The notes: generated by a model not told the origin, from the sequence alone. Shown: positions 223 through 63,736, counted from the first letter of the stretch. The stretch: 64,000 bases of DNA from an uncultured Gemmatimonadaceae bacterium (GCA_963829055.1 CAWHHI010000020.1:32001-96000), one strand, 5' to 3'. A program made the numbers and translations.

Positions 223-1298
223 CGGTGGCGACCACGAGCCCGTTCAAATATCTGGACGCGTACCAGAAGGAGGACGCGGACCGTTTCTTCGGGCGCGAGC
301 GCGAGACGGCGCAGCTCTACAACGTGGTGCACGCCTCCAACCTGGTCCTCATCTACGGCGCCTCCGGCACCGGCAAGTCGAGCCTCGTCAACTGCGGACT
401 CGGCAACCAGTTCGTCGACACGGACTGGCTGCCGCTATTCGTTAGGCGCGGCACGGATCTCAACCGGTCGCTGGAACGCACCATGGCCGGCGCGATGAAG
501 GGAGACGCGCCACCGGATGACGTGGCCGTCGGCGAGCGTCTGCGGGCGCTGTATCTCGAGCACTACCGCCCGATCTACCTGATCTTCGACCAGTTCGAGG
601 AGCTCTTCATCCTCGGGACCCGCGACGAGCAGCGGCTGTTCTACGAGACGGTTCGGCAACTCCTCGACGCGAGCGCGGGATGCAAGCTGCTCATCATCAT
701 CAGAGAGGAGTACATCGCCTATCTCTCGGACTTCGAGAAGGCGGTGCCCTCCCTCTTCGACAACCGGCTCCGCATCGAGAAGCTCAACGATGCCAATCTC
801 GCCCGGATCATTGTCGGGACGGCGCACGCGGCCGGTATTCGGGTAGACCAGCCTAACGTCACCGTGCCGGCGATCCTGGAGAACATCCGTGATCGCCGCA
901 CGGGCGTCGATCTCGCCAATCTCCAGATCTACCTCGACCGACTCTGGCGCGCCGATCTCGAGCGGCAGGGCACCGCGACGCCGGCCGTGGTGACGTTCGA
1001 TCCTGCACTCACCGAACGAGTGGGCAAGTTGAGCGACGTGCTGCGCGACTTTCTCTCCAATCAGCTCAAGGCAATCGAGCAGGGCCTCACGTCGCAGCGA
1101 GGTGTCGCGAAGCCCGAGGGCATTCCGCTGGAGGTCCTGTTCGCGCTGGTGACCGAGGAGGGTACGAAGCGGAACCTCGACGTGTCAGCGATCCTCGAGG
1201 CGCTTCCCGGGAACCGCGAGATCCAGGAGTCGCACGTGCGATTCTGCCTCGACGAGTTCGAGCGCCTGCGGCTCGTGCGTCCGCTCGCCGTCGCGTGA
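219..1298 (+). CDS. nSTAND1-like P-loop NTPase (ATP-binding protein) with no C-terminal repeat domain
   Basis: SPFKYLDAY..FFGRERE N-terminus, Walker A GASGTGKSS, Walker B LIFDQFEELF, IIREEY motif. Confidence 0.8.
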   Translation: MTVATTSPFKYLDAYQKEDADRFFGRERETAQLYNVVHASNLVLIYGASGTGKSSLVNCGLGNQFVDTDWLPLFVRRGTDLNRSLERTMAGAMKGDAPPDDVAVGERLRALYLEHYRPIYLIFDQFEELFILGTRDEQRLFYETVRQLLDASAGCKLLIIIREEYIAYLSDFEKAVPSLFDNRLRIEKLNDANLARIIVGTAHAAGIRVDQPNVTVPAILENIRDRRTGVDLANLQIYLDRLWRADLERQGTATPAVVTFDPALTERVGKLSDVLRDFLSNQLKAIEQGLTSQRGVAKPEGIPLEVLFALVTEEGTKRNLDVSAILEALPGNREIQESHVRFCLDEFERLRLVRPLAVA

Positions 1299-1311
1299 CG
1301 CTGACCCGCCA

Positions 1312-1468
1312 GTGGAACGAGGTTGAGATGTTGATGGCAGGCGAGGCAGGCCCTATAGCCAGAATTGGCAAAGGGCAGACTTCCCTGACAGGTGAGAGGC
1401 GGAGCGCGTTTGCCAGTTCTGGCTCTGGGCCGGAATCGCCCACCATCAACATTTAACGCGCAGTCCAC
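1312..1468. repeat. Long imperfect inverted repeat (hairpin, ~140-155 nt)
   Basis: Paired segments ATGTTGATGG/CCATCAACAT, GGCGA/TCGCC, GGCCC/GGGCC, AGCCAGAA/TTCTGGCT and TGGCAAA/TTTGCCA. Confidence 0.65.
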
Positions 1469-1475
1469 CTCACGC

Positions 1476-1505
1476 TTGACATGTGACCTTTTGGTCACCT
1501 ATTAT
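1476..1505 (+). promoter_or_regulatory. Sigma70 promoter with ArsR operator palindrome
   Basis: TTGACA (1476-1481), 18 nt spacer, TATTAT (1500-1505). GTGACC-tttt-GGTCAC (1483-1498) lies between the boxes. Confidence 0.75.
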
Positions 1506-1834: not shown

Positions 1835-2353
1835 CGAGCACCGCACCGTCCGGCACGAGCGTCACGACGCAGATCTATCGCGTCTTCATCAAGGCAACGC
1901 CGCAGGCGATCTGGGACGCGATCACCACGCCGGAGTGGACGCAGCGCTTCGGCTACGGGTTGCGCGACGTGTACGAGTTGCGTCCCGGCGGGTCGTACCG
2001 CGGGTACGCGAACGCAGGGATGACCGCCATGGGGATGCCGGAAGTTGTCGACGGACGGCGAGGTCATAGAGGCGGATCCGCCGCGGAAGCTGGTGGTCAC
2101 CTGGCGCATGGCGATGGACCCCAGCATGGCCGCCGAAGGCCATACGCGCCTAACGTATGAGATCGTGGAGGGGAGGAACGGTGTGAGCCGCCTCAGCGTG
2201 ATCCACGATCTCACGGGAACGCCCGGCCATGCGGCGATGGTCGCCGGCGATCAGCAGGGCCCCGGAGCCGGCGGTGGCTGGACCTGGATCCTGAGCGATC
2301 TCAAGACGCTGCTCGAGAGCGGAACGCAGATGGTAACGGGCGGCGCGTGGTAG
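1831..2353 (+). CDS. SRPBCC/AHSA1 domain protein (one frameshift near 2050)
   Basis: IKATPQAIWDAITTPEWT in the first frame and GEVIEADPPRKLVVTW...GWTWILSDLKTLLESG in the second. Typical ArsR partner. Confidence 0.85.
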
Positions 2354-2698: not shown

Positions 2699-3391
2699 TT
2701 ACAACGAGGGCGACAACCCTTTCGTCGCCGGGTCGGTGTGCCGCGCTAGCAGTGTCGTGATCTCGTCACGGAACCGCTTGCTGCCAAGCGCCCAACCCGT
2801 GTGGGTCGCGTTGCGAATGTCCGCGAGCACCGAATCGGGAAGCGCGGCCCGAAAGAGCGCGCGGTATGCCGCCTGACGCGTGCATGCGTCGCGGTCGAGC
2901 GCCAGATACCGCTCGTGGGGCGTCACCAGCGGATCGCTTGCGCCGAGGGCGTTCGCTCCGTGGCTCGACCACGGGTAGTGACGCGGGTCGGTGACGAGCC
3001 CGGCGCGCACCGGATTGAGCTCGATGTACCGATGGCACGCGAAGAGATACTGATCGGTGTCCACGACAGTGGCCTTGTAGCGTCCCTGGCACAAGGTGCC
3101 AGTGCGTTCATACGTGTCGTTGAAACGCCTAACGTATCGTCGGCAGACCGATTGCAGCATCCGTCCGATGCCGGAGGCGGTCGTCGGCGTCAGGAGAAGG
3201 TGCACGTGGTTGGTCATGAGCACGTATGCGTGCACGTGACAGCCGTACTTTTCGCACGCGGTGCGGAGACAGTCGAGGAAGAACCGATAGTCCGAATCCG
3301 CGACGAAGAGCACCGAGCGATTCGTGCCGCGCTGGATGACGTGCTGTGGCATGCCAGGAGCGGCGTAGCGTGGTATGCGTGCCAAACTCAC
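2699..3391 (-). mobile_element. rayT: REP-associated tyrosine transposase (RAYT, Y1 HUH / IS200-like superfamily)
   Basis: HVIQRGTNR, HAYVLMTNHVHLL (HUH), RYIELNPVRAG (catalytic Tyr) and YPWSS motifs. Flanked on both sides by palindromic repeats. Confidence 0.9.
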
Positions 3392-3626: not shown

Positions 3627-5410
3627 AGCGGCCGCTCGTTCCCCTCGTGATACCGGAGCGCGGCTCCGACACCCCCTCCCAGCCACCGCGCACTCGCATG
3701 ACCGCGTTGACCGTCGCGAGCGCCGGTTGGTAGCGGATGCCGTGCCCCATCGCCCGCAACGAGTCCTCGACTTCCTTCGTGAGCCCGTCGGTCTCCACGA
3801 CGAGCGTGTCGGGAAGAGCCTGATGGTGCAGGCGAGGCGCGCGCATCGCGTCAGCGAGCGACATCCGGTGGTCGATGACGTTGAGAATCACCTGTGAGGT
3901 CGCGGTGATGATGCGCGGGCCGCCGGCCGCCCCGACGACCAGCAGCAGTTGCCCTTTCGGGTCGAGGACGATGGTCGGCGACATCGCGCTCAGCATCCGC
4001 TTGCCCGGCGCGATCGCGTTCTGCTCGCCCTGCACGAGCCCGAACAAATTCGGCTTGCCCGGCGACGCCGCAAAGTCGTCCATCTCGTCGTTCATGAAGA
4101 AGCCGAGGTTCTTCAGGTAGACGGCCGAGCCATAACCGCTCCCAGGCCCGTTGATCGTCGTGGTCGTCGCGACAGCGTTCCCCTTGTCATCGACGACGGA
4201 GTAATGCGTCGTGTGGTTACCGTCCGTGATCTGCTTCGCGTCCGGTGGCGTGGGAGTGGCGCGGTCGGGTCGGATCGTCGCGGCCAGCGTGCGTGCGTAG
4301 GTCTTGCTCGTGAGCTCGGCCTGCGGGACCGGCACGAAGTCCGGGTCGGCGAGCTTGCTGTTACGATCGATGAACGCGCGCTGATACGTGGAGCTCAGAA
4401 CGTGGGCATACGCCGCGCTCCCCCAGGATGGCAAGCGAGTCCCACGACTCCAGGATGTTGAGCGACTGCGTGACGACGATGCCGCCTGACGACGCCGGCG
4501 GCATCGTGAACATCGTGTAACCGCGGTAGGTGCTTTGGATGGGAGTGCGCCAGAGTGGACGGTACCGGCGGAGGTCCTCCGTCGTGATGTTGCCGCCACC
4601 GCGTTGCATCGCCGCCACCAGCGAGTCGCCAACCTCTCCTTCGTAGAACGCGCGTGCTCCACCGGCGGCGATGAGCTCGAGCGTCCGTGCGAGTGCCGGC
4701 TGGCGGAAGCGCGTGCCCGGCTCGAGCGCGGTTCCGCCGGGGAAGAACACGTCCTTCGCGTCGAAGCGCTCGATGTGCTCTCGATTGCCCAGGAGGGAGC
4801 GCTGCAGGAACGAGTCGACGACGAAGCCGTCGCGCGCGAGCCGGATCGCCGGTGCCATCACCTGCGAGAGCGTCATCGTCCCGTACTTCGCGAGCGCCTC
4901 CGACATTCCCGCCACCGACCCCGGGATCCCGGAGGCCCGGTAGCCGATGATGCTCGCGTCGGTCGGGTTGCCGTTCGCGTCGAGGTACATGTCGCGGCTG
5001 GCAGAGAGCGGCGCGACTTCGCGATAGTCGATCGCCGCCGTGCGCCCGTCAGCCATGCGGATGACCATGAACCCCCCACCCCCAACGTTGCCGGCCGCCG
5101 GATAGGTCACGGCGAGCGCAAAGCCAACGGCGACCGCGGCATCGACCGCGTTCCCGCCAGCGCTGATGATCTCGCTCCCCGCGTCGGAGGCGAGCCCGTT
5201 GATCGAGGCGATCATGGAGCGCTCGCCGAAGTCCGCCTTCTCGCCCGCCTTGAAGCGCCACCCATCGGGAAAGACAACGACGCGGCGAGCCGGGATCGCC
5301 GGCTCGGCTGCCGCGGCCGACGTCGACGGCGAGTCGTTAGGCCCGGTGCGGCAAGCGACGGAGGCGAGGAGCAGAGCCAGACGGCTGACGCTGGCGACAG
5401 AACGCGGCAT
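3625..5410 (-). CDS. ggt: Gamma-glutamyltransferase, lipoprotein (frameshift near 4440)
   Basis: GGNAVDAAVA, IDYREVAP, HTTHYSVVD (catalytic Thr), NDEMDDF, PGKRMLSAMSPT, GAAGGPRI. Confidence 0.9.
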
Positions 5411-5618: not shown

Positions 5619-5658
5619 CGCGTTGCGGACCGAAACAGCGGGCACCATGTTCGCAGTC

Positions 5659-7377
5659 ATGAGACACCTCCTACTCCTGACCTGCGCCCTGACGGCGTCT
5701 GCGTGCGCGCCTTCCACGAAGGACGCGCCCGATTCCAAGTCCTATCCCTCCTCGTACGAGACCGTCATTTCCGGCGGCAGACTCGTCGACGGCACCGGCA
5801 ACGCGTGGTACTACGGCGACGTGGGGATCGCCAATGGCCGCATCGCCCGGATCACGCCACCCGGCATGCTCGCCCAGGTGTCGGCCAAGCAACGCATCGA
5901 CGCGCGCGGCCTCGTCGTCGCGCCCGGCGTCATCGACATTCAGGCCCACTCGGAAGAGCAACTGCTCTACGGCGATAGCCGAGTGATGGGGATGATCACC
6001 CAGGGCGTGACGACGATGATCATGGGCGAAGGAGAGACGCCCGGACAGCTGTCAGCCACGATGCTCTCCAACTATCTCAAGTCCGACGACACGTCGCACG
6101 CGGCACTGTATCGCACCTTCGTCGGGCCGAAGGGGTTCGGTGAGTGGCTGCACGCCATGGAGACTCACACCGCGTCCGTCAACTTCGGCTCGTTCCTCGG
6201 CGCCGGTGGCGTTAGGCAGTACGCGAAGAACATGACGCAGGGCGCGCCGACGCCGGCCGAGCTGGATACGATGCGGACCGTCGTCAGGCAGGCCATGCGG
6301 GACGGCGCGTTCGGCGTGGCCAGCGCGCTGATCTATCCGCCGGGCAATTACGCCGGGACGGAAGAGCTCATCGAGGAAGCGAAGGCGATGGCGCCGTACG
6401 GCGGCGTCTATATCACCCACATGCGGTCGGAAGGCGATCGTTTCCTCGAAGCCGTCGACGAAGCGATGCGTATCGGGCGCGAGGGTGGCGTGCCGGTCGA
6501 GATCTATCATCTCAAGGCAGCGGGCGTGAAGAACTGGCCGAAGATGAAGACCGCGATCGCGAAGATCGATTCGGCGCGCGCGGCCGGTCAGGACGTAGCG
6601 GTCGATCAGTACCCGTACACCGCGGGCGGGAACAACCTGTCGTCGTGCATTCCGCCGTGGGCGCACGCCGATGGCAAGCTTCTCGACCGGCTGCGCGACC
6701 CGGCGACGCGCGCGAAGATCAAGGCCGAGATGACGGATGAGAACGCGAACTTCGAGAGTCTCTGTCTCGGCGCGACGCCACAGGGCGTCGAGGTGGTCGG
6801 CTTCAAGGTCGACTCGCTCAAGAAGTACGAGGGCAAGCGCCTGCCGGAGATCGCATCGGCGTGGAAGAAGGACTGGCCTGACGCGTTGATGGACCTGACG
6901 CTGGCGGAAAAGAATCGGCTTGGGCAGATCATCTTCATCGCGTCGGACTCGAACATCGCCGTGCAGGTGAAGCTGCCGTACATGAAGTTCGGCACGGACG
7001 CGGCCGGCTACGATCCGGACAGCACGCATGAGTCGGTGCATCCACGGTCGTACGGGACGTATCCGAAGATTCTCGGCCAGTTCGTACGTGAGCAGAAGCT
7101 GCTCACGCTCGAGGATGCGGTGCGCAAGATGACGGGCGCGACGGCGGCTCGGCTGTCGATTCGCGATCGCGGCGAGCTCAAGGAAGGGTGGTACGCGGAC
7201 ATCATGATCTTCGATCCGAACACGATCATCGACCGTGCGACGTACGAGCAGCCGCACCAGCTGTCCGTCGGCGTTAGGAACGTGCTGGTGAATGGCGTGC
7301 CGGTCGTCACCGACGGAAAGGTGACGGGCGCGAAACCCGGTCGCGTCGTGCGCGGGCCGGGGTACGGGCTGCCGTAA
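5659..7377 (+). CDS. N-acyl-D-amino-acid deacylase (D-aminoacylase family amidohydrolase), lipoprotein
   Basis: APGVIDIQAHS, YITHMRSEG, YHLKAAG, HPRSYGTYP, RGELKEGWYADI. N-terminal lipobox-like ASAC. Confidence 0.9.
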   Translation: MRHLLLLTCALTASACAPSTKDAPDSKSYPSSYETVISGGRLVDGTGNAWYYGDVGIANGRIARITPPGMLAQVSAKQRIDARGLVVAPGVIDIQAHSEEQLLYGDSRVMGMITQGVTTMIMGEGETPGQLSATMLSNYLKSDDTSHAALYRTFVGPKGFGEWLHAMETHTASVNFGSFLGAGGVRQYAKNMTQGAPTPAELDTMRTVVRQAMRDGAFGVASALIYPPGNYAGTEELIEEAKAMAPYGGVYITHMRSEGDRFLEAVDEAMRIGREGGVPVEIYHLKAAGVKNWPKMKTAIAKIDSARAAGQDVAVDQYPYTAGGNNLSSCIPPWAHADGKLLDRLRDPATRAKIKAEMTDENANFESLCLGATPQGVEVVGFKVDSLKKYEGKRLPEIASAWKKDWPDALMDLTLAEKNRLGQIIFIASDSNIAVQVKLPYMKFGTDAAGYDPDSTHESVHPRSYGTYPKILGQFVREQKLLTLEDAVRKMTGATAARLSIRDRGELKEGWYADIMIFDPNTIIDRATYEQPHQLSVGVRNVLVNGVPVVTDGKVTGAKPGRVVRGPGYGLP

Positions 7378-7570: not shown

Positions 7571-8637
7571 ATGCTGAATCGACGCAGGTCGGCCCTGGCG
7601 CTCGTTGTCGTTCTCGCGGCGTGCGGCACCGCTCCCGACTCCCCGACCGCGCCTAACGCGACTCCTCCCACCACCGGCGTCTCGTTCGCCAAGCCCGTCG
7701 ACCCCGGCTACAAGGTCTATCAGGATGGCAGCACCACCGACGCCGTGACGCAGCCCGTGGGCGGCGCGTATCTGGCCGGTGGTGGCACCGACGTCGACGC
7801 GGGCATGGTGTGGCTGATGGGACAGGGCGGGACGCGTAGCCCCGGGAAGTACGGCGACGTCGTCGTGCTGCGCACGACCGGCAGCAATGGCTACAACAAG
7901 TATCTCGTCGGGCTCGGCGCGAATTCCGTGACGAGCATTGTCATCACGTCCGTGGCCGGCGCGAACAGCGCCGTCGTGACCAACGCGATCGCGAAGGCCG
8001 AGGTGGTGTTCCTCGCCGGCGGGGATCAGTCGACGTACGTGAATCTGTGGCGCGGGACGGCGCTTCAGACCGCGGTGAACGCGCGCGTGGCGCAGGGATA
8101 CCCGATCGGCGGGACGAGCGCCGGACTGGCGGTCATGGGGCAGTACGTGTACGCGGCGCTCAACGCGTCATCCGAGTCGGCGATCGTGTTGCAGAATCCG
8201 TTCGACGCGTCGGTGACGTTGCAGACTGCGCTGTTCAACGTGCCGCTGCTAACGAACGTCATCACTGACTCGCATTTCAAGACGCGCGATCGCATGGGAC
8301 GACTGCTCGTTTTCCTGGCGCGCTTGCAGCAGGACAACATGGCGACGTCGCGCCGCGCGCGATCGCGATCGACGAAGGGTCTGGTGTTGGGGTGACGGCG
8401 AACGGGTCGACGACGACGTTCGGCACCGGCGCCGGCGCGTACTACCTGAGCGTGCCTGCGAACGCCACGCGCACATGTGCCCCGAATACTCCGCTCTCGT
8501 ACAGCGCGGTGAGTACCGTACACGTCCAGAACGGCCAGAACTTCACGTTAGGCAGCTGGACGAGCAGCAATGCCTCGCCGTATACGCTCAGCGTCGCGAG
8601 CGGCGTCGTTTCGTCATCGACGGGGTCGATCTACTGA
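7571..8637 (+). CDS. Cyanophycinase-like S51 peptidase, lipoprotein (frameshift near 8350-8390)
   Basis: LAGGGTD, VFLAGGDQ, GGTSAG nucleophile, DSHFKTRDRMGRL. LAAC lipobox. Confidence 0.85.
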
Positions 8638-8835: not shown

Positions 8836-9822
8836 TCAGCGCTTGTCCACGCTCCGCAGGAACTCGCGCACGTCCTTCACGTTCGCGTCAGGTGCATCCC
8901 ACGAGGTGACGTGGCTCGCACCCTTGTAGAGGACGAACTTGGCGCCTGGGATCAGCTTCGCGTGCGCCTCGACCGTCTTCGGCCCGACCTCGTCGAACTC
9001 GCCCGTCGTCGAGAGGACCGGCACCTTGATCTTCGGGAGGTCCGCGCGCGCATCGTAGTCCTTGAGCGTGCCGGTGACGACGTACTCGTACGCACCCTGC
9101 ATGTAGTTGTACTGCTCGGTGCCAAACCCCGCGTTCGTCGAGTCGAGGTCGGCCTGCACCGGACGCCGCCACACGTGTTTCGCGTAGAACTCATCCGTCG
9201 CGGCTTTGAAGGCCGGCGTCTCTGCGCTTCCGCCGGCTTTCCACGCCGCGATCGCGCGCTGCGACGAGTCGCTCATCTGCTTCACCCACGCGTTGGCCTC
9301 GCGCACGTAGGCGTGCCAATCGAACACCGATCCTCCGAAAACGATGCCGGCAACGTGCTCGGGGTGCGCCTTGTAGTACTCGAGCGCGAGGACCGTTCCC
9401 CACGACTGCCCGTTGAGGAACCACTTGTCGATTGCGAGCGCGCGGCGCAGTGAGTCGAGCTCCTCGACGAAGCGCGGGATGTTCATGAGCGTCGTGTCAG
9501 TGAGCCGAGTCGACTTCCCTGCTCCGAGCTGGTCGTAGCGGATGACCGGGCGATCATCGCCGATGGCTTCGAATGGCTTGAGATAGTAGCTGCCCGCGCC
9601 CGGACCGCCGTGCAGGAGCACCATTGGCGTTCCCGTCCCGGTACCGGACTTCTTGTACCAGATGCTGCCGCCGCGGACGGGAAGCATCGCCTCACCGGGG
9701 CCGAGTGCGGGAGTGGTCGCGGCGGTTGCGGCGTTAGGCGCCGCAGTGTCGGTCCGCTTGGACTCGGTCCCGGCGCAGGCAGCGAGGAGCGGCGTCGCGA
9801 AGATGAAATGACGGATGCGCAT
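8836..9822 (-). CDS. Proline iminopeptidase-family alpha/beta hydrolase, lipoprotein
   Basis: LLHGGPG, YDQLGAGKS, GQSWG, GEFDE, GASH. LAAC lipobox. Confidence 0.9.
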   Translation of the reverse strand: MRIRHFIFATPLLAACAGTESKRTDTAAPNAATAATTPALGPGEAMLPVRGGSIWYKKSGTGTGTPMVLLHGGPGAGSYYLKPFEAIGDDRPVIRYDQLGAGKSTRLTDTTLMNIPRFVEELDSLRRALAIDKWFLNGQSWGTVLALEYYKAHPEHVAGIVFGGSVFDWHAYVREANAWVKQMSDSSQRAIAAWKAGGSAETPAFKAATDEFYAKHVWRRPVQADLDSTNAGFGTEQYNYMQGAYEYVVTGTLKDYDARADLPKIKVPVLSTTGEFDEVGPKTVEAHAKLIPGAKFVLYKGASHVTSWDAPDANVKDVREFLRSVDKR

Positions 9823-10070: not shown

Positions 10071-10097
10071 ATGTGCTGCATGCCTAACGATCATGGA

Positions 10098-11334: not shown

Positions 11335-11919
11335 CTGGTGCCTTTACCTGGTAGGCGAAAATCGGTCGCCATCGGGGCTCGGGACGACGACCGGCGCCTC
11401 GGCGCTCGGCGGGCCCGCGACACCATCGAATATGACGTTGTACGTGACATTCGATGTGGACGGATCAGGCTTTGCGGCGACGAACTAGACGTGTCGGTCG
11501 TTAGGCGTGAACGAGAGCCGCGAGACAGGTATCGTACCTGCGCCCGTTGCCGATCCACGTCCGAGCTCCTTGCCGTCGACGATCACGACATATTCCTGTC
11601 CGTTGCGACCCGCGTACGCGAAGCGGGTGCCATCGGGCGTCATCACGACTTCGGCGTTGTTGAGAATCTCGTCGAACGGGGGGCCTTCGACGCCATCAAC
11701 GAGCACGACGAATCGGCTTCCCTTGCGGCTGATTGCGGCGACGTGTGCGCCACTGTCGCTCACCAGGAACTTGATTGCGTTCCCTGATGTGGCGACGATC
11801 TGCTCCTCGACCTTCGCGTTGCCAGGCGTCCCCTGTGCATCCGCGTACGAGAAAGCCGACACGAGCCCTGCGGTGATTAGCGCCATACGCGTCGCGTACG
11901 ACCGGATGCGGCGGTTCAT
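11335..11919 (-). pseudogene. Truncated secreted beta-propeller (TolB/WD40-like) protein
   Basis: Signal peptide and VVLVDGVEGPPFD/TPDGTRFAY repeats. In-frame TAG at 11485-11487, after which similar repeats continue until cut off just before hicA. Confidence 0.55.
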
Positions 11920-16187: not shown

Positions 16188-16218
16188 ACTCCCAAACTCC
16201 TGCGATGATACGGTACCG

Positions 16219-29338: not shown

Positions 29339-29355
29339 CGTCGCACGTCGTGGCG

Positions 29356-44954: not shown

Positions 44955-44985
44955 CCGAGGTCGTCCAGCAAGTCGTTAGGCGAAC

Positions 44986-46035: not shown

Positions 46036-46200
46036 CCTCGAGAGGGAAGGCGCTCCGTGACGTTAGGCACGGCCAGCCAGGCAGCCTCTACCGCGCGATG
46101 CGTTGCGCGCAGGCCGATCGGTACTTTCTAGCGTCGCACCGTGACGGTAATCTGTCAGGCGACCGGGACACCATCGAATCTCTTTATGGGGAGGTGCGCC

Positions 46201-46629: not shown

Positions 46630-46904
46630 CGACGAAAGGAACGCATCGGTTCGGCGTCCACACCTCGCAGCGTGACCGTCGCGATCGTGCCGCGTGGTTC
46701 CGTGCCGACGGTCCCCGCAAAGCGCCGCGCTGGTGTTCGATCGGACGGGATTGCCGGGGCTCCAGGTCATCCAGGATCCACTGGCTTACGAAAGCCGCAC
46801 CCAGCGCTCCAACATGGACGTGTTCGATCGTTGTACCTAGCAGCCGATGCGAAACCAGCCGCTGCCGCGTGAGGGCCGCTGAGCGCAGCCTCAGGAGGCC
46901 GTGT

Positions 46905-49545: not shown

Positions 49546-49827
49546 GGCGCCGCGGCCGAGCGGTGGACGGAGAGAAAACTGTGCATCCCGGCCGTGCCGA
49601 AGGTTTCATCGCGCACGATGTCGTGTCCCTGCCCGTACGCGAACGACAACGCGGATGCCGATCCGTCGCTCGCGTTAGGCGGCGCTGATGTCGACCGTCG
49701 GGCCATTCACCGTCGTCGCGCCCGTGCCGAGACCACCATACGCCACCGGAGTCCACTCGCTGCCGGCGTCGCGACCCGGAGTCTGAAGTCCACCGCCCCG
49801 TGCAGCACGTTAGGCGGCTGCGGGCGA

Positions 49828-51557: not shown

Positions 51558-51841
51558 GAGCAATCTGGAGGAGAGGGAGTATTCCGTTCGCATTGACTTA
51601 CGAGCGAGCTCGTAAGATGCGGCGGCGGCGCTACCGCTGCCATGCCTCGCCACGCGAACCGCGACGTCTGACGCCGCTCCCTCACGGCACGGGTGCACGC
51701 ACGTTAGGCGACCGTCTACTCCGGTCGCCCTACGCGCTCGGTGCTGGTGCGAGAGAAAAAAATCATTTGAAATCGCGGCTCGCACATGTATCGTCCAAGG
51801 GCAGCGCGGCATTCTCGTGTCCGGCGACGCCCGAGGCCCTC

Positions 51842-55530: not shown

Positions 55531-55607
55531 GTGCGGTGTGGTCGATCGCCTAACGTGTAGCACCGATGGGCCGCTCGACCGTCATCCGACCCGGAGACGA
55601 CGCGACA

Positions 55608-56927
55608 ATGCGTGGATCGACAATCACCCGCGCCCGTGCGTTCCGGGCAGCGCTCGGCACACTGGCCCTCGCCGGTTGTGGTACAGACCAGCCGACGGCT
55701 CCGCCTCCAACCGCCGCCACATGCATCACGGGACTCTCGGCGCAGGCCACCTGCTATAGCGGGACACAGCTCAGCGGAGCGTCCTATCAGATTGCCGTGC
55801 CGACGAACTGGAATGGCATCCTGGTCGTCGTGGCCCGCGGTGCGACGCCAGTGCCGGCAACAGATCTCCGCACGTTCGGTGCTGCCCGCAACCTGCTGCG
55901 CGACGGAGGACTCGCGCTCGCCGCGACCACGTACCGCAGCGACACGCCACTTGCGCGAGACGCGACGGATGACGTCGAGGAGCTGCGACAGATCTTCGTC
56001 GCGAAGTTCGGCCGCCCGAAGCGCACGATCGTCTGGGGACTGTCGTTCGGCGGTCTGGTGGCGGCGCGTTGTGCGGAGCGGTTCGGGACCTTCGACGGTG
56101 TGGTGTCGCTGTGCGGACTGATGGCGGGGACGCTGCGGAGTCTCTACACACAGTTGGACGCGCGCACCGTGTACCAGTATTACTGCCGCAATCTTCCACG
56201 CAGCGACGAGCCGCGGTACGACCTGTTCCTCGGTCTCGCGCCACAGACCACGCTGACGGCGGCGGAGCTCCAGGCCCGCGTCAACGAGTGCACCGGCATC
56301 AGTCTCCCCGCGGCGCAGCGCTCGGCCGCGCAGCGTGAGAACCTGGCGAACATCCTCGCCGTGCTGCGCATCCCGGAATCGGGGCTCCTGACGAACATGG
56401 ACGCCGCGACCGCCCTGCTGAAGACGTTCCTCCAGGAGACGTTAGGCGGACACAACCCGCTGCAGAACACGAACGTCCGATACAGTGGGTCGACCGACGA
56501 CGTCGCGCTGAACCGTGACGTGCCCCGGTACCCCGCCGAGAACCAGACCGCCACCGTGCTGGCCTCGGCCGATGACCCGACGGGACGCCCGCGAGCTCCG
56601 GTGCTGACATTGCACGCCATCGACGACCCTCGCGCGTTCGTCGAAAACCAGTCGGCGTATCGCGCAGCGGTCACCAAGGCTGGCGCGTTAGGCAATCTCT
56701 TCCAGGCGTTCACGAATCAGGGCGGGCATTGTCAGTTCACCACGGCCGAGCAACTCGGGGCGCTCCAGGTGGTACTCGATTGGATCGAACGCAAAACGCC
56801 GCCTACGAACGAAGCGCTCGCTGCGGCGTGCGAGAAGTATCGACTCGAGTTCGGCACCAGCTGTCGCTTCAATGCGGGCTATCAGCCGGCCGCACTGGAA
56901 ACGCGACTCTATCCGCGACAGCCGTGA
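55608..56927 (+). CDS. Alpha/beta hydrolase fold lipoprotein
   Basis: LAGC lipobox, VPTNWNG, WGLSFGG, HAIDDP, GGHC. Confidence 0.8.
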   Translation: MRGSTITRARAFRAALGTLALAGCGTDQPTAPPPTAATCITGLSAQATCYSGTQLSGASYQIAVPTNWNGILVVVARGATPVPATDLRTFGAARNLLRDGGLALAATTYRSDTPLARDATDDVEELRQIFVAKFGRPKRTIVWGLSFGGLVAARCAERFGTFDGVVSLCGLMAGTLRSLYTQLDARTVYQYYCRNLPRSDEPRYDLFLGLAPQTTLTAAELQARVNECTGISLPAAQRSAAQRENLANILAVLRIPESGLLTNMDAATALLKTFLQETLGGHNPLQNTNVRYSGSTDDVALNRDVPRYPAENQTATVLASADDPTGRPRAPVLTLHAIDDPRAFVENQSAYRAAVTKAGALGNLFQAFTNQGGHCQFTTAEQLGALQVVLDWIERKTPPTNEALAAACEKYRLEFGTSCRFNAGYQPAALETRLYPRQP

Positions 56928-59740: not shown

Positions 59741-60091
59741 GGAAACGGCAACTGCAACCGCAACGGCAAATTCAACTGCAACTGCAGGACAGGATGGCCA
59801 GGATGGACAGGATTGAACAGAGCCTCCGTGTCGCATTAAGGGCCCCTCCCACAACGAGCCCAGGATGAGGGGCACGGCCGCTCGGGACGCCACTCTCCCC
59901 GAGATGTGTTCCCCACATTCGTTAGGCCCCCGGCGACACGCGCTCGACGCCGAGGCAGTCATCTTCCCAATCCTGTCCATCCTGCCAATCCTGTCTTGCA
60001 GTTGCCGTTGCCGTTTCCAGCCCATGGCATGCAAAGCCGTCATCCTGCCAATCCTGTCCATCCCGGCCATCCTGTCCTGCAGTTGCTGTTC
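59741..60091. repeat. Inverted element built from 6-mer (GCAACT/G) and 9-mer (ACAGGATGG) microrepeats, family 4
   Basis: Left arm 59741-59815. Reverse-complement arms at 59969-60018 and 60042-60091. Confidence 0.75.
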
Positions 60092-60563: not shown

Positions 60564-61044
60564 CGAGAGCTTCAGGATGACGACGCCGTCGGATCTCGAG
60601 ATCCGGCTGACGCGCCTGTTCGACGCACCGCGTGCGCTCGTGTTCGAGGCAATGCACACCCCTGAGCATGTGAAACAGTGGTGGGGGTGCCTGGCCCAGG
60701 GCTATTCCGTTCCTGTCTGCGAGATCGACCTGCGTCCGGGCGGCGCGTGGCGGTTCGTCAACCGGCTGCCTAACGGCAAGGAGGTCGCGTTCCACGGCGT
60801 CTACCGCGAGATCGCACGGCCAGAACGCGTCGTGAACACGGAGATCTTCGAGGAGTATCCCGACGTCGAATCTCTCGTGACGACCGTGCTGACCGAGGAG
60901 AGCGGGAAGACACGACTTACCGTGACGGCGCGATATCCGTCGGCCGAAGTCCGCGACATCGTCCTCAAGTCCGGGATGGACAGAGGCGCCGCACTGAGCT
61001 ACGACCATCTCGAGGAAGTGGCAGCGGCCCTCAACGGGTCCTGA
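60538..61044 (+). CDS. SRPBCC/AHSA1 family protein
   Basis: TRLFDAPRALVF, EIDLRPGGAWR, FHGVYREI, SGMDRGA. Confidence 0.9.
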   Translation: MPVGSVANSESFRMTTPSDLEIRLTRLFDAPRALVFEAMHTPEHVKQWWGCLAQGYSVPVCEIDLRPGGAWRFVNRLPNGKEVAFHGVYREIARPERVVNTEIFEEYPDVESLVTTVLTEESGKTRLTVTARYPSAEVRDIVLKSGMDRGAALSYDHLEEVAAALNGS

Positions 61045-61066
61045 GCGGTCCGGAGCTCCAGTATCG

Positions 61067-61097
61067 CGGGGTGCGGCGCCTAACGCCGCACCCCGCT
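61067..61097. terminator. GC-rich hairpin between convergent genes
   Basis: GCGGGGTGCGGCG-CCTAA-CGCCGCACCCCGC. Confidence 0.65.
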
Positions 61098-61111
61098 CGA
61101 CCATCGTGCGC

Positions 61112-63736
61112 CTACTCGGCTCTGAGCGTCACACCCGGATCCGCTGCCGCGGCGCGCCGAGCCGGGATGTAGCTCGCGATCGCTGCGACACTCATCAACA
61201 GCGCCGCCGATCCCAGCAGGCTCGCCAGATCTCTCGGCGCCACGCCATACACCAGGTTGCTCATGACCCCGGACAGCGCGATCGCGAGCACCAGGCCGAT
61301 GATCGAGCCCGCGACCGCCATCGACGTCCCGTTCCATATCACGAGACGCGTGACGTCGCGACCCGTCGCGCCGAGCGCAACGCGAATCCCGAATTCACGC
61401 AAGCGTTGCGTGACGCCGTACGCGACGACGCCGTAGATCCCCACTGCCGCCAGCAGGAGCGCGACACCGCCGAATGACGCCATCAGGAGCGTCGTCAACT
61501 GGCGCTGCGCCAACGAACGATCGATGATCGCGGTCATCGTGCGGACGTTGTAGACGCTCTGCTCGGGATCGACAGAGCGTATCGCGTTGGCGACCGATGC
61601 AATGGACACTCCCGGCTCTGCCGCACTCCGGACCGCGAGCACCATCCGATCCTGTGTCCACTGCCGATAGCTCCAGTACACCTGCGGTAGCGGATCGACC
61701 TCCAACCCGACGGCGCGCACATGCGCCACGACGCCGATGACGGTCGTCCAGCGACCACCGCGCCACTCCGGTTCGCGAAAGCGCTTGCCGATGGCCGTCT
61801 CGCCTGGCCACATCGTTCGCGCGACGCGCTCATCGATGATCGCGACCGGGGGTGCGTTCGCGTCGTCGTGCTCGGTAAAGCCGCGACCCGCGATGAGCCG
61901 AATGCCGAGCGTCGCGAAGTAGTCGGGCGTCACCGTTCGCGTCTCGACGTTGGTCAGCTCGCTGGCCGTTCCCGCCGCGGTCTCGAAGTGCACCGGATTG
62001 GTCTGCTCACCGGAGAGCGGAATCCTGTTGGTCAGACTCGCATTCGCCACTCCGGGCACCGCGCGCACTGCTTCGATCAATCGCCCGTAGTAGTCGGCGA
62101 CTTCCTGATCCGAGGAATGCTTGCTGCGCGACACCTCGAGTGCCAGCGTCGCGACGCCGTCGGGTCTGAAGCCGGGGTCGACTTGCGCGACATTGAGCGC
62201 GCTCTTGAGCAGGAGGCTCGCGCCGGCGAGCAGCGGAAGCGCGAACGCGACCTGCGCGGCGACGCCGATGCGCCGCGCCGTCGCGCGCCCGCGCCCGGAC
62301 GTCGACGACCGACCTCCATCCTTCATGATCGTCGTGAAGTCGGACGCCCACGCGTGCGCGGCGGGCGCGATGCTCGCCGCGAAGCCGGTGATGACCAGCA
62401 GCGCGAGCGAGAAGGCAACGACCGGCGCGCTCAGTGAGATGTTCTCGACGCGCGGGAGTCCCGCCGGCGCGTTCGCCACGAACGCGCGGACCGCCCATTC
62501 GGCCATCGCCACGCCGACCGCCCCGCCTAACGCAAGCACCGGCACCGTCTCGGCGATGGCTTGCGCCATCAACCGTGCGCGTGAGGCGCCGAGCGCCAGT
62601 CGCAACGCGAACTCTCCGCTCCGAGCGGTGGCCCGCGCGCCGAACAGGTTCGAGAGATTCACGCACGCGATGAGCAGCAGGAACGCGACCGCGGCGAGCA
62701 GGAGCGCCAGGACGGGGCGAACGTCGCGCACGGCGTCGTCGAGCATCGAGTCCACCGTCATACCGAGCTCGGTGTCGGCGGTATTCGACGTCGTTAGGCG
62801 TGCAGCCAGCGCGGCGACCTCCTGGCGCGCACGACTCAGCGTCGCGGAGGGAGCGAGGCGGGCCACGACACGGTAATTGTCCGTCACCTGACGCGTGAGC
62901 TCACCGGGTTCCAGAACGAGCGGCACCCACGCCTGGTAGGCGCTCGACGGATACTGAAAGCTCGGTGGCATCACGCCGACGATCGTGTGCGGCGATCCGT
63001 TGAGACGAATCTCGCGGCCGACGATGGTAGAATCGGCGTTGAACCGGCCACGCCAGAGTGCGTCGCTCAACAGCACGACGTGCTCGCGGCCGGGTTGATC
63101 CTCGTCGCGAGCGAACGTCCGGCCCAGTGCCGCGGACACACCCAGTACCGAAAAAAGATTGGGTGAGACGCTCACGCCCTCGAGGCGTTGCGGTTCCCCG
63201 TCGCCGACGAGGTTGAGATTCACGTTCTCGAACAGCGCGACATCATCGAACACGCCGCGGAGCTGACGAAGCTCCATGGCGTCGGCCGCCGCCGGCAAGT
63301 TGCGAACGCCGTGTCTCGTCAACCAGACGCTGACGAGCCGGTCCGGCTCCCGAAAAGGGAGCGGCCGCAGCATCACGCCGTGGACGACGCTGAAGATCGC
63401 CGTTGCCGTGCCGATCCCTAACGCGACGATCGCGACGCCGGTGAGCCCGAACACTGGTGATTTGCCGAGGAGCCGCACGCCGAACCAAATGTCGCGGAGT
63501 ACCTGGCGCATGCTCGCGCCGGGTCGGTCGTCACGTGACTGTTCCTGCATCGTGTCGACGCTGCCGAACCGCAACCGCGCTTCGCGGCGGGCGGCCGCGG
63601 GAGACATCCCGCGGGCGACGTTCGCCTCGATCTCGCGCTCGACGTGAAACCGCATCTCGTCGGCGAGGTCCGCATCGATGCGCTCGCTCCGGAAGAGTGA
63701 CCGCCAGAGCATGAGAAGCTGGTGGATGATGCGCAC
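61112..63736 (-). CDS. ABC transporter permease, ADOP-type with N-terminal permease-prefix domain
   Basis: DLADEMRFHVERE, ALGIGTATAIFSV, LLIACVNLSNL, EFGIRVALGA, PARRAAAADPGVTLRAE. Confidence 0.93.
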   Translation of the reverse strand: MRIIHQLLMLWRSLFRSERIDADLADEMRFHVEREIEANVARGMSPAAARREARLRFGSVDTMQEQSRDDRPGASMRQVLRDIWFGVRLLGKSPVFGLTGVAIVALGIGTATAIFSVVHGVMLRPLPFREPDRLVSVWLTRHGVRNLPAAADAMELRQLRGVFDDVALFENVNLNLVGDGEPQRLEGVSVSPNLFSVLGVSAALGRTFARDEDQPGREHVVLLSDALWRGRFNADSTIVGREIRLNGSPHTIVGVMPPSFQYPSSAYQAWVPLVLEPGELTRQVTDNYRVVARLAPSATLSRARQEVAALAARLTTSNTADTELGMTVDSMLDDAVRDVRPVLALLLAAVAFLLLIACVNLSNLFGARATARSGEFALRLALGASRARLMAQAIAETVPVLALGGAVGVAMAEWAVRAFVANAPAGLPRVENISLSAPVVAFSLALLVITGFAASIAPAAHAWASDFTTIMKDGGRSSTSGRGRATARRIGVAAQVAFALPLLAGASLLLKSALNVAQVDPGFRPDGVATLALEVSRSKHSSDQEVADYYGRLIEAVRAVPGVANASLTNRIPLSGEQTNPVHFETAAGTASELTNVETRTVTPDYFATLGIRLIAGRGFTEHDDANAPPVAIIDERVARTMWPGETAIGKRFREPEWRGGRWTTVIGVVAHVRAVGLEVDPLPQVYWSYRQWTQDRMVLAVRSAAEPGVSIASVANAIRSVDPEQSVYNVRTMTAIIDRSLAQRQLTTLLMASFGGVALLLAAVGIYGVVAYGVTQRLREFGIRVALGATGRDVTRLVIWNGTSMAVAGSIIGLVLAIALSGVMSNLVYGVAPRDLASLLGSAALLMSVAAIASYIPARRAAAADPGVTLRAE

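What the first reader, a model, noticed from the sequence alone, without database searches (positions are those of the whole stretch)
440..63424. Highly iterated non-palindromic octamer CGTTAGGC/GCCTAACG written into genes in several frames
Seen: I count by hand about 51 exact copies, e.g. 440, 851, 2148, 3127, 5335, 6210, 7651, 8546, 9732, 19882, 20201, 20824, 21145, 26981, 35338, 42608, 49434, 49673, 49808, 56440 and 62792. About 18 more keep the GTTAGG core with one flank changed. That is roughly one site per kb. A rough base-composition estimate at ~68% GC predicts only 2-3 exact copies. Copies lie on both strands (about 31 vs 20). They sit inside genes as GCG-TTA-GGC (ALG), GTT-AGG (VR), CCT-AAC (PN) and CGC-CTA-ACG (RLT), and as GCC-TAA stops (16217, 29354, 46624). 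They therefore impose otherwise rare TTA/AGG/CTA codons regardless of frame, so the signal acts at the DNA level. Known analogues are Neisseria/Pasteurellaceae DNA-uptake sequences, cyanobacterial HIP1, Chi and KOPS. Chi and KOPS are strongly strand-polarised and this motif is not. Inference: a lineage-specific uptake, methylation/repair or nucleoid-protein signal. I do not know of a description of it.
Basis: partly seen in the sequence, partly recalled or inferred. Interest (0 to 1): 0.85.

Follow-up and report, generated by a model that had tools for sequence, protein, structure and literature searches.

The report
Genome-wide DNA word matching integron core
This soil bacterium writes the eight-letter DNA word CGTTAGGC into its ordinary genes about every 1,500 bases against its own codon habits, much like the self-tags a few bacteria use when taking up DNA; the word is also the crossover site of its integron gene cassettes, and what reads it is still unknown.

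Summary
The window holds 51 exact copies against about 1.2 expected. The 7.78-Mb genome holds 5,004, split evenly between strands. Shuffling synonymous codons leaves 148 copies against 3,226 observed. All six frames are used, stop codons included. The word encodes 10-46% of every compatible tripeptide and has raised those peptides' frequency. It shows no replication polarity. Copies avoid lying within 200 bases of each other. A 50-kb foreign block has none.

The word is patchy among Gemmatimonadales genera: about 13 of 301 phylum genomes carry it, with one sharp contrast inside a genus. It recurs as TCGTTAGGC in soil Verrucomicrobiota. It equals the R' core of these lineages' integron attC sites. 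IntI presence does not track it, and common R' variants are not amplified.

ComEC, PilQ-like, ComEA-like, Vsr, RecC, AddAB-like and ComP_DUS genes do not explain the distribution.

Best reading (0.45): a DUS/USS-like self-tag spread by transfer-biased drive.

This scan reported the same word earlier on other genomes.

The parts
440..447 (+). word copy, read xxC-GTT-AGG-Cxx in gene 219-1298(+) (nSTAND1 NTPase)
851..858 (-). word copy, read xxG-CCT-AAC-Gxx in gene 219-1298(+)
2148..2155 (-). word copy, read xGC-CTA-ACG in called gene 2045-2353(+)
3127..3134 (-). word copy, read xxC-GTT-AGG-Cxx in called gene 2699-3391(-)
5335..5342 (+). word copy, read xxG-CCT-AAC-Gxx in called gene 4361-5449(-)
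6210..6217 (+). word copy, read xxC-GTT-AGG-Cxx in gene 5623-7377(+) (amidohydrolase)
7651..7658 (-). word copy, read xxG-CCT-AAC-Gxx in called gene 7571-8395(+)
8546..8553 (+). word copy, read xCG-TTA-GGC in called gene 8392-8637(+)
9732..9739 (+). word copy, read xxG-CCT-AAC-Gxx in gene 8836-9822(-) (alpha/beta hydrolase)
10082..10089 (-). word copy, no gene called here
11499..11506 (+). word copy, read xxG-CCT-AAC-Gxx in called gene 11485-11919(-)
15204..15211 (-). word copy at the start edge of called gene 15211-16062(+)
16217..16224 (+). word copy giving the GCC-TAA stop of gene 16219-16935(-) (PhyH)
18044..18051 (+). word copy, read xCG-TTA-GGC in gene 16969-18360(+) (beta-lactamase fold)
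19882..19889 (+). word copy, read xCG-TTA-GGC in gene 18876-21410(+) (MacB/FtsX permease)
20201..20208 (+). word copy, read xxC-GTT-AGG-Cxx in gene 18876-21410(+)
20824..20831 (+). word copy, read xCG-TTA-GGC in gene 18876-21410(+)
21145..21152 (+). word copy, read xCG-TTA-GGC in gene 18876-21410(+)
22180..22187 (-). word copy, read xxC-GTT-AGG-Cxx in gene 22085-23464(-) (amidase)
22720..22727 (+). word copy, read xxG-CCT-AAC-Gxx in gene 22085-23464(-)
23093..23100 (+). word copy, read xGC-CTA-ACG in gene 22085-23464(-)
25152..25159 (+). word copy, read xGC-CTA-ACG in called gene 25092-25553(-)
26981..26988 (+). word copy, read xGC-CTA-ACG in gene 25550-27175(-) (peptidase M28)
27864..27871 (+). 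word copy, read xxG-CCT-AAC-Gxx in gene 27175-28353(-) (peptidase M55)
28979..28986 (+). word copy, read xGC-CTA-ACG in called gene 28472-29338(-)
29354..29361 (+). word copy giving the GCC-TAA stop of gene 29356-30666(-) (pyridine nucleotide-disulphide oxidoreductase)
31127..31134 (-). word copy, no gene called here
35338..35345 (+). word copy, read xCG-TTA-GGC in gene 34884-36305(+) (SBP56)
36330..36337 (-). word copy, read xxG-CCT-AAC-Gxx in called gene 36310-36711(+)
36787..36794 (+). word copy, read xCG-TTA-GGC in called gene 36672-37001(+)
40358..40365 (+). word copy, no gene called here
42608..42615 (+). word copy, read xCG-TTA-GGC in gene 42178-43707(+) (LuxR/TPR regulator)
43509..43516 (-). 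word copy, read xxG-CCT-AAC-Gxx in gene 42178-43707(+)
44974..44981 (+). word copy, no gene called here
46061..46068 (+). word copy, no gene called here
46624..46631 (-). word copy giving the GCC-TAA stop of gene 46141-46629(+) (SnoaL-like)
47298..47305 (-). word copy, read xCG-TTA-GGC in gene 46905-48035(-) (TPR protein)
47876..47883 (-). word copy, read xxC-GTT-AGG-Cxx in gene 46905-48035(-)
49434..49441 (+). word copy, no gene called here
49673..49680 (+). word copy, no gene called here
49808..49815 (+). word copy, no gene called here
51702..51709 (+). word copy, no gene called here
52852..52859 (-). word copy, no gene called here
55548..55555 (-). word copy, no gene called here
56440..56447 (+). 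word copy, read xCG-TTA-GGC in gene 55566-56927(+) (peptidase S9-like)
56686..56693 (+). word copy, read xCG-TTA-GGC in gene 55566-56927(+)
59920..59927 (+). word copy, no gene called here
60768..60775 (-). word copy, read xxG-CCT-AAC-Gxx in called gene 60538-61044(+)
61078..61085 (-). word copy, no gene called here
62525..62532 (-). word copy, read xCG-TTA-GGC in gene 61112-63736(-) (MacB/FtsX permease)
62792..62799 (+). word copy, read xGC-CTA-ACG in gene 61112-63736(-)

Best explanation
CGTTAGGC is a DNA-level 'self' tag. A protein not yet identified reads the double- or single-stranded word during some step of DNA transfer between cells of the population. The most likely step is uptake in natural transformation, as with the USS of Pasteurellaceae and the DUS of Neisseriaceae. 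Packaging or the start of recombination on incoming DNA would work the same way. DNA that carries the word is passed on more often, so point mutations that create the word spread (molecular drive) until codon and protein costs balance the gain. Shown here: the word is imposed on DNA in all frames against codon bias. It saturates the cheapest coding contexts first and has changed protein composition. It is orientation-neutral and turns over between species, and neighbouring copies are redundant. It is missing from foreign DNA. It is either present or absent in a lineage, with a dialect in a second phylum. Inferred, not shown: that transfer is the step where the word is read.
For: Enrichment: 51 copies in the window against 1.18 expected. 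The genome has 5,004 copies, 49 times the order-2 Markov expectation. Synonymous shuffles give 148 +/- 13 copies against 3,226 observed.

Frames: all six are used, with 1,298, 431, 603 and 889 copies in the four coding frames. In addition 170 TAG stops and 186 TAA stops are written with the word. The word holds 46% of all TTA codons.

Occupancy follows codon cost: 46% of P-N-[VADEG], 22% of [SPTA]-L-G, 20% of [SCRG]-L-T and 10% of V-R-[LPHQR]. PN[VADEG] is at 1.95 times expectation in G000, against 1.21 for the reversed control. In two non-carriers it does not exceed its control (1.43 vs 1.52; 0.94 vs 0.94). USS approximately double their tripeptides in the same way (PMC2817400, abstract).

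No polarity: Spearman 0.12 with GC skew, while gene orientation gives 0.45. Cumulative strand walks are within permutation range on 4 of 5 large contigs.

Redundancy at short range: gaps under 100 bases number 69 against 315 expected, and gaps of 100-200 bases 144 against 295. The deficit is alike for all relative orientations.

Foreign DNA: a 49.6-kb block has no copy. It carries second copies of ftsK, aroC, DAHP synthase, trpG and pepA that are only 47-60% identical to the resident ones.

Turnover: at aligned permissive sites, the relative carries the word at 16 of 34 sites where G000 has it, and at 11 of 59 where G000 lacks it. One-mismatch states are rare: 6-12% against 28% for all 8-mers.

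Presence or absence: two non-carrier relatives have no other hyper-abundant word. Within genus g46 the counts are 3,896 and 4,141 against 66 copies.

Dialect: Verrucomicrobiota carriers use T-CGTTAGGC, with T at -2 in 93% of copies.

Uptake parts are present in G000: ComEC, a PilQ-like secretin, PilA-like pilins, DprA and three PilT family ATPases.
Against: No uptake or transfer experiment exists, and no reader was found.

The uptake genes tested do not separate carriers from non-carriers. ComEC is in 40 of 41 genomes. PilQ-like genes are in all 28 Gemmatimonadales of the panel. HHH_3/ComEA-like genes are in 32 of 33, and G000 itself has only a weak fragment.

No ComP_DUS domain scores over the cut-off in 5 carriers.

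Inverted word pairs in terminators, common for the DUS, are not enriched.

The 166-kb Verrucomicrobiota sample shows no short-range repulsion: 36 gaps under 100 bases against 35.6 expected.

Uptake alone does not explain why two phyla share the same word, nor why it equals an integron core. In G000's own integron the R' variants GTTAGGT and GTTATGC are the same variants that are enriched genome-wide. This also fits an integron-linked reader.
Confidence: 0.45

Rival explanations
1. Integron-linked reading. An IntI-family recombinase, or a partner protein of the integron, reads the word as an R-box half-site. The chromosome is thereby seeded with sites that interact with cassette traffic, either as landing pads like attG sites or as raw ends from which new cassettes arise.
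For: The word equals the attC R' octamer of the order's cassette arrays: CGTTAGGC at 32 of 47 L'-anchored sites. In Verrucomicrobiota the attC/attI flank ...TC|GTTAG matches the extra T-C of that phylum's dialect. G000's own integron has 6 attC-like sites, with R' GTTAGGC x4, GTTAGGT x1 and GTTATGC x1. The last two are among the four one-off variants enriched genome-wide (827 and 583 copies). An 8-mer containing GTTRRRY by chance is about a 0.4% event (my estimate). Insertion of cassettes at genomic attG sites is in print (Loot et al. 2024, seen only as cited in passages of PMC12614218).
Against: IntI does not track the word. With best E <= 1e-40 it is present in 11 of 16 carriers and 18 of 25 non-carriers. 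All of G245, G302, G298, G309 and G126 have it, while the densest Verrucomicrobiota carrier, G044, has none. Arrays in carriers use mainly R' GTTAGAT (12 of 24 in G045; GAC 3, GGT 6, GGC 3). Genome-wide, TCGTTAGAY is at control level: 21-47 copies against 15-57. Only about 5 attC-like paired structures exist outside the integron among 5,004 copies.
Confidence: 0.2
2. A cis-acting chromosomal signal kept by natural selection. In this reading the word is the binding site of an abundant nucleoid, condensation or repair-guiding protein that needs a site every 1-2 kb in either orientation.
For: Spacing is even, with a short-range deficit. Density is similar in genes of all codon-score classes, 0.47-0.64 per kb. 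Orientation is neutral. Large soil populations could sustain weak selection per site (inference).
Against: Close relatives, one of them in the same genus, live without the word or any substitute. The foreign block has none. Half of the permissive-site copies are not shared between congeners. No candidate protein was found.
Confidence: 0.15
3. Sequence-specific mutation or repair bias. In this reading a methyltransferase-linked very-short-patch-like repair, as proposed for cyanobacterial HIP1 (recalled), converts near-cognate sites to the word.
For: Inner one-mismatch neighbours are depleted, at 0.2-0.6 of the order-2 expectation. One-mismatch states are also rare in orthologue comparisons.
Against: Vsr was found in 0 of 16 carriers and 4 of 25 non-carriers. 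The usual alternative state differs at two or more positions (CGCTCGGC), which a fixed-position mismatch repair cannot bridge. The enriched variants include transversions such as CGTTATGC and CGTTAGGG. A site-by-site process does not predict the short-range repulsion. The depletion of neighbours is partly an artefact, because the word inflates its own sub-word counts. Methyltransferases were not tested.
Confidence: 0.08
4. A Chi-like recombination hotspot read by a helicase-nuclease (RecBCD or AddAB).
For: Chi sites are asymmetric 5-8-mers that are over-represented within genes (recalled). RecC is present in 3 of 4 Verrucomicrobiota carriers.
Against: The word has no replication-linked polarity. 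RecC was not found in G000 or in 13 of the 14 Gemmatimonadales carriers in the panel. AddAB-type PDDEXK_1 genes are, if anything, rarer in carriers: 5 of 25 against 30 of 71 (Fisher p = 0.056, uncorrected for kinship). A 49-fold enrichment is far above that of any Chi I recall.
Confidence: 0.04

Closest known systems
Uptake signal sequences (USS) of Pasteurellaceae
   Same: A short asymmetric word at about one copy per 1-1.5 kb, on both strands, inside genes in several frames. It raises the frequency of its tripeptides and is missing from foreign DNA. Sources: PMC2817400 abstract; here.
   Different: No uptake bias has been shown and the organism is uncultured. There are no informative flanks, whereas USS have AT-rich flanks (recalled). 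The phyla differ. The word coincides with an integron core.
DNA uptake sequences (DUS) of Neisseriaceae, read by the minor pilin ComP
   Same: A hyper-abundant self word with lineage dialects. Sources: PMC3630211, title and abstract start in the listing; here.
   Different: No ComP_DUS domain scores over the cut-off in 5 carriers. There is no excess of inverted pairs or terminators. The only pilin tested has no shared globular domain in other carriers.
Integron attC/attI core site (R' box, GTTRRRY) and genomic attG sites
   Same: The sequence is identical to the dominant R' octamer of the order's cassette arrays and of G000's own integron.
   Different: More than 99% of copies are single half-sites inside ordinary genes, without R''/L''/L' partners. 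IntI does not co-vary with the word. The common R' variants GTTAGAT and GTTAGAC are not amplified.
HIP1 (GCGATCGC) of cyanobacteria
   Same: An octamer written into genes at very high excess (recalled).
   Different: HIP1 is a palindrome and this word is not. No Vsr was found in carriers. A methyltransferase link was not tested.
Chi and KOPS
   Same: Asymmetric octamers over-represented in genes (recalled).
   Different: Both are polarised with replication (recalled), and this word is not. RecC is missing from G000.

Membership tests
DUS/USS-type uptake sequences | Word-bearing DNA is taken up preferentially by competent cells | not testable with these tools
   No culture or uptake data. This is the defining feature and it is open.
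DUS/USS-type uptake sequences | Hyper-abundant short word, both strands alike, about one copy per kb, inside genes in several frames | tested here: met
   5,004 copies in 7.78 Mb, 2,547 forward and 2,457 reverse. All six frames are used. Shuffle controls.
DUS/USS-type uptake sequences | Word-encoded tripeptides are raised in the proteome | tested here: met
   PN[VADEG] observed/expected is 1.95 against 1.21 for the control. [SPTA]LG is 1.23 against 0.89. This is not seen in non-carriers G008 and G023.
DUS/USS-type uptake sequences | Scarce in foreign or recently acquired DNA | tested here: met
   One case: 0 copies in the 49.6-kb block C6:5440-55037, which carries divergent second copies of housekeeping genes. 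The block may be an assembly chimera.
DUS of Neisseriaceae | ComP-type minor pilin receptor (Pfam ComP_DUS) | tested here: not met
   No match over the cut-off in G000, G014, G245, G044 or G041.
DUS of Neisseriaceae | Frequent inverted pairs forming terminators | tested here: not met
   Opposite-orientation pairs at 150 bases or less number 27 and 29, against about 104 expected for each class.
USS of Pasteurellaceae | Conserved flanking segments beside the core | tested here: not met
   In G000 there is no information outside the 8 positions, apart from a codon-phase ripple.
Integron attC site | R''-L''...L'-R' imperfect inverted repeat that folds as a hairpin | tested here: not met
   Only about 5 paired, foldable places exist outside the integron. 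A run of 14 same-strand words is ordinary coding DNA.
Integron attC site | R' core fits GTTRRRY | tested here: met
   GTTAGGC fits. It is the commonest R' in arrays of G027 and G025 and of G000.
Integron-driven feature | Presence follows IntI | tested here: not met
   IntI is in 11 of 16 carriers and 18 of 25 non-carriers.
Chi / KOPS | Strand polarity with replication direction | tested here: not met
HIP1-like methylation-linked word | Palindromic word with a cognate methyltransferase | tested here: not met
   The word is not a palindrome. Vsr is absent from carriers. Methyltransferases were not tested.
REP/MITE repeats | Longer conserved unit, mostly between genes | tested here: not met
   Flanks are not conserved. 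Density in called genes is 0.62 per kb, against 0.71 per kb elsewhere.

The most novel reading that the evidence does not exclude
The word is read by an integron-linked protein: an IntI-family recombinase or a partner with narrower taste. In carrier lineages the whole chromosome would then be a field of R-box half-sites. These would serve as docking or landing sites for cassettes, and as the ready-made ends from which new gene cassettes are cut. That would bear directly on the unsolved origin of integron cassettes, and it would tie cassette traffic to DNA uptake in soil bacteria of two phyla.
Probability: 0.15. Interest if true: 0.95.

Novelty: new variant of a known kind. Interest (0 to 1): 0.78.

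Why it matters
As far as I recall, sequence-tagged self-recognition of DNA is established only in two proteobacterial families. In this genome a word with the same population-genetic signature occurs at the same density. It is present in abundant, mostly uncultured soil bacteria of two other phyla (Gemmatimonadota, Verrucomicrobiota). It also coincides with the recombination core of their integrons.

If the word marks uptake or transfer, it would show that tagged genetic exchange is widespread in soil. It would also give a handle, the word itself, for tracing gene flow in metagenomes. If the word is tied to integrons, it bears on how cassettes are captured or made.

Tried and rejected
Candidate readers tested for co-variation with the word, none convincing:
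- IntI.
- ComEC.
- Vsr: 0 of 16 carriers.
- PilQ-like secretin. In Verrucomicrobiota the one low-count genome lacks the full-length form, but that is a single genome.
- RecC.
- HHH_3/ComEA-like.
- ComP_DUS.
- AddAB-type PDDEXK_1. A first panel looked promising (3 of 18 carriers against 10 of 15 non-carriers). It shrank to 5 of 25 against 30 of 71 among Gemmatimonadales (p = 0.056, kin not independent), and I dropped it.
- A 171-aa pilin of G000 (C16:947580-948095). It shares only the N-terminal helix with pilins of other carriers.

Other work that led nowhere:
- A blastx of a 166-kb Verrucomicrobiota piece against my G000 gene calls found no unusually similar gene (top identity 64%, core genes).
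- The stand-alone IntI N-terminal fragment (C4:2850-3281) is a truncated pseudogene and is not shared by all carriers.
- The longest same-strand run of words (14, at C5:254548-269479) is ordinary coding DNA, not a cassette array.
- Markov models of order 4-6 'explain' the word only because the word makes up most of its own sub-words. They are not a valid null.
- Rfam gave no match in the window, and there are no tRNAs.
- Sequencing runs: 20 runs from 16 studies hold 42-66% of the sampled words of window 18001-28000, and no RNA holder is listed. No population data were obtained, and I draw no conclusion from the runs.
- My gene calls are home-made (hexamer model, 6,547 genes, 74% of the genome). 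'No gene called' therefore does not mean intergenic.

Literature: no paper in the held library pairs 'uptake sequence' with Gemmatimonad* (0 papers). With Verrucomicrobi*, 3 papers matched and their titles are unrelated. The octamer itself turns up only in primers and constructs among the 20 papers listed of 478. Searches gave nothing on a genome-wide word.

Full report
OBSERVATION. One hundred dinucleotide-preserving shuffles give 1.18 +/- 1.10 copies, with a maximum of 5. A further 20 sites keep the GTTAGG core with one changed flank. The window (GC 66.5%) encodes ordinary proteins. Among them are two MacB/FtsX permeases, peptidases, beta-lactamase-fold proteins, a Ser/Thr kinase, SBP56 and LuxR/TPR regulators. 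It holds no tRNA and no Rfam match.

GENOME SCALE. The assembly (G000, 7,784,024 bases, 20 contigs, 85.9% complete) carries 5,004 copies, spread over all contigs. This makes the word the 14th commonest 8-mer outright, although it contains rare TTA, TAG and CTA triplets. Observed over expected is 17, 38, 49 and 19 for Markov orders 0 to 3. Orders 4-6 reach about 1 only because the word makes up most of its own sub-words: 5,004 of the 5,630 GTTAGGC copies are preceded by C. No information lies outside the eight positions.

I called genes with a home-made hexamer model, giving 6,547 genes that cover 74% of the genome. Within these genes, shuffling synonymous codons inside each gene gives 148 +/- 13 copies (maximum 177 in 20 runs) against 3,226 observed. 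Shuffling codon order gives 67 +/- 6.

All six frames occur:
- xCG-TTA-GGC: 1,298
- xxG-CCT-AAC-Gxx: 889
- xGC-CTA-ACG: 603
- xxC-GTT-AGG-Cxx: 431
- the two stop frames, only at gene ends: GCC-TAA 186 and CGT-TAG 170

Of all TTA codons, 46% lie in the word.

The word encodes 46% of all P-N-[VADEG] tripeptides, 22% of [SPTA]-L-G, 20% of [SCRG]-L-T and 10% of V-R-[LPHQR]. GCG-TTA-GGC is the commonest spelling of Ala-Leu-Gly. Occupancy therefore falls as codon cost rises. The proteome has shifted as well. PN[VADEG] stands at 1.95 times expectation, against 1.21 for its reversed control. In non-carrier relatives the target and the control do not differ. Findlay and Redfield reported the same effect for uptake sequences (PMC2817400, abstract).

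GEOMETRY. Strand choice does not follow GC skew (Spearman 0.12, p = 0.13), whereas gene orientation does (0.45). Cumulative strand walks stay within permutation range on 4 of 5 large contigs; C16 gives p = 0.018. Density is 0.62 per kb in called genes and 0.71 per kb elsewhere. It is 0.47-0.64 per kb across codon-score classes.

Neighbouring copies repel each other. Gaps under 100 bases number 69 against 315 expected. Gaps of 100-200 bases number 144 against 295, and gaps of 500-1,500 bases are about 1.27 times expectation. The deficit is the same for direct and inverted pairs, and there is no excess of hairpin-forming pairs.

One 49.6-kb stretch (C6:5440-55037, GC 0.70) has no copy at all, not even of the 6-base core. 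It carries second copies of ftsK, aroC, a DAHP synthase, trpG and pepA that are 47-60% identical to the resident ones. It is therefore either foreign DNA or an assembly chimera.

VARIANTS. Only four one-mismatch neighbours are enriched: CGTTAGGT (827), CGTTATGC (583), TGTTAGGC (435) and CGTTAGGG (428). Changes at the inner positions are at or below expectation. This looks like a recognition profile, not mutational decay, because two of the four are transversions.

RELATIVES. All 6 congeners hold 2,501-5,112 copies and another genus (G014) holds 6,360. Five further genomes hold 345-605, and most of the rest of the 41 hold 3-65, below a control word.

In 301 genomes of the phylum, I defined carriers as genomes with at least 300 copies and at least twice the control. 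Ten of the 71 in family f1 (counting G000) are carriers, as are 2-3 of the 125 in family f2 (all in one genus). None of the 102 genomes in nine other families is a carrier. Inside genus g46 two genomes have 3,896 and 4,141 copies and a third has 66. Four unpublished genomes (G013, G090, G208, G129) are low-count rows in these tallies, and no claim depends on them. Two non-carriers sampled over 200 kb each have no other hyper-abundant word.

Congeners are only 70-84% identical in DNA. At word sites the orthologous 8-mer is identical in 35-40% of comparisons (17 of 49 and 17 of 43), against 17% for all 8-mers. It differs at one position in only 6-12%, against 28% for all 8-mers. The usual alternative is CGCTCGGC, in which the Leu codon is CTC.

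At aligned sites where both species encode a permissive peptide, the relative carries the word at 16 of 34 sites where G000 has it, and at 11 of 59 sites where G000 lacks it (pairs share kin). This shows some inheritance and much turnover.

SECOND PHYLUM. I scanned 185,579 species' genomes for two copies 200-230 bases apart. The 80 loci listed are mostly Gemmatimonadaceae and Verrucomicrobiota (Chthoniobacterales, 'Spartobacteria' and 'Verrucomicrobiae' MAGs). Four of those genomes hold 2,512-4,562 copies in 3.2-4.5 Mb, and a fifth (G042) holds 334. In a 166-kb piece of G044 (GC 0.60) the word is 58 times over expectation. It also carries an extra T: T-CGTTAGGC, with T at -2 in 93% of copies. 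Its variant spectrum differs from that of G000, and it shows no short-range repulsion.

INTEGRON LINK. In low-count relatives the few copies sit in same-strand runs 500-700 bases apart. These are cassette arrays: each unit ends in GCCTAACA...L''...L'...CC-GTTAGGC. Over six loci the R' octamer is CGTTAGGC at 32 of 47 L'-anchored sites, TGTTAGGC at 8 and CGTTAGAC at 4.

G000 has its own integron. It comprises an IntI-like gene at C20:208008-208985 (265.7 bits against a cut-off of 265) and small cassette-type genes (DUF1990, DUF1801, DUF4440/SnoaL, a BrnT-like fragment). It has six attC-like ends, with R' GTTAGGC x4, GTTAGGT x1 and GTTATGC x1. The last two are also genome-wide enriched variants.

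Verrucomicrobiota arrays end in ...CTTGTTCTC|GTTAG.., which matches that phylum's T-C extension.

Three results count against integron recombination as the writer:
- IntI is as common in non-carriers (18 of 25) as in carriers (11 of 16). It is present in the non-carrier G298 and was not found in the densest Verrucomicrobiota carrier.
- In carrier G045's array, R' is GTTAGAT 12, GGT 6, GAC 3 and GGC 3 out of 24. In G042 it is GTTAGAT at 6 of 6. Yet TCGTTAGAY is at control level genome-wide (21-47 against 15-57; 17 of G045's 47 lie in the array). TCGTTAGGT, by contrast, is enriched 3-12 fold in carriers.
- Outside the integron only about 5 places have an attC-like paired structure. The longest same-strand run of words is plain coding DNA.

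CANDIDATE READERS. None of the following explains the distribution:
- ComEC: 40 of 41 genomes.
- PilQ-like secretin: all 28 Gemmatimonadales of a 33-genome panel.
- HHH_3/ComEA-like: 32 of 33.
- Vsr: 0 of 16 carriers.
- RecC: only 4 carriers, and not G000.
- ComP_DUS: none over the cut-off in 5 carriers.
- AddAB-type nuclease: 5 of 25 carriers against 30 of 71 non-carriers, p = 0.056 without correction for kinship.

G000 does encode ComEC, a PilQ-like secretin, PilA-like pilins, DprA and three PilT-family ATPases. The machinery for uptake exists, but it exists in non-carriers too.

READING. The pattern needs an agent that reads about 8 bases of DNA with a graded preference and acts over segments of a few hundred bases. 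It must act the same in both orientations, and it can be gained or lost by a lineage. The process is still running, because sites turn over between species. The only established process with this signature is transfer-biased molecular drive, as for USS and DUS (PMC2397512, PMC3630211 and PMC1939737, seen as listing and abstract starts).

I therefore put a DUS/USS-like self tag first (0.45). An integron-linked reader comes second (0.20) and a selected cis-acting chromosomal site third (0.15). Repair bias (0.08) and a Chi-like site (0.04) follow.

The identity with the attC core is too specific to be chance: roughly 0.4% for any GTTRRRY-containing octamer, before counting the matching flanks (my estimate). 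It remains the main unexplained point.

PRIOR NOTES AND PRINT. Earlier agents of this scan described the same word in other Gemmatimonadaceae and the 9-mer in Chthoniobacterales, with the same closest analogue and no reader. I re-tested their main claims here. I also added the following:
- the spacing deficit;
- the occupancy against codon-cost relation and the peptide shift;
- the permissive-site turnover table;
- the within-genus contrast;
- the absence of a substitute word in non-carriers;
- the mismatch between array R' variants and genome-wide variants;
- the negative co-variation tests.

I found no description in the held literature.

Noticed in passing
window about 30919-31081: A stretch of roughly 130-160 bases matches dozens of places in each of five congeneric genomes at 75-90% identity. 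This points to a multi-copy short element. Rfam has no match in the window.
   Followed up: no
G000 C6:5440-55037 (outside the window): A 49.6-kb block with GC 0.70 and no copy of the word. It holds second, 47-60% identical copies of ftsK, aroC, DAHP synthase, trpG and pepA, and several of its genes look fragmented. It is foreign DNA or an assembly/binning chimera.
   Followed up: partly
G000 C20:197000-209300 (outside the window): The genome's own integron. The IntI-like gene (208008-208985, minus strand) is transcribed toward the cassettes, not away from them. The cassettes are DUF1990, DUF1801, DUF4440/SnoaL, a BrnT-like fragment and an esterase.
   Followed up: partly
G000 C4:2850-3281 and G002:C102:6-314: A truncated IntI N-terminal (core-binding) domain ORF ending in two stops. 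A fragment with the same profile limits (positions 2-104) occurs in a congener.
   Followed up: partly
G000 C9:92260 and C9:93485-93582: Two consecutive attC-like ends far from any integrase, forming a small cassette cluster without IntI.
   Followed up: partly
L210-L219 (G042:C2:400001-600000): The low-count Verrucomicrobiota genome carries a second repeated unit, about CGTGAWTCACGTATAGCA (a small inverted repeat plus a tail), at 19 copies per 200 kb. It looks like a different kind of element.
   Followed up: no
G000 C15:11673-16010: AddAB-type nuclease domains sit in short open frames (258 and 339 aa), where relatives have frames of 1,000-1,500 aa. This may be a broken AddAB or may reflect assembly indels.
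   Followed up: no
G000 C18:97494-97548: A perfect 55-base hairpin whose base is an inverted pair of the word. It looks like a terminator and is the only such case found.
   Followed up: no
G000 C12:494302-494424: The only ComEA-like (HHH_3) match in G000 is a weak fragment in an 81-aa frame next to PilT genes. Congeners have full ORFs of 211-230 aa.
   Followed up: no
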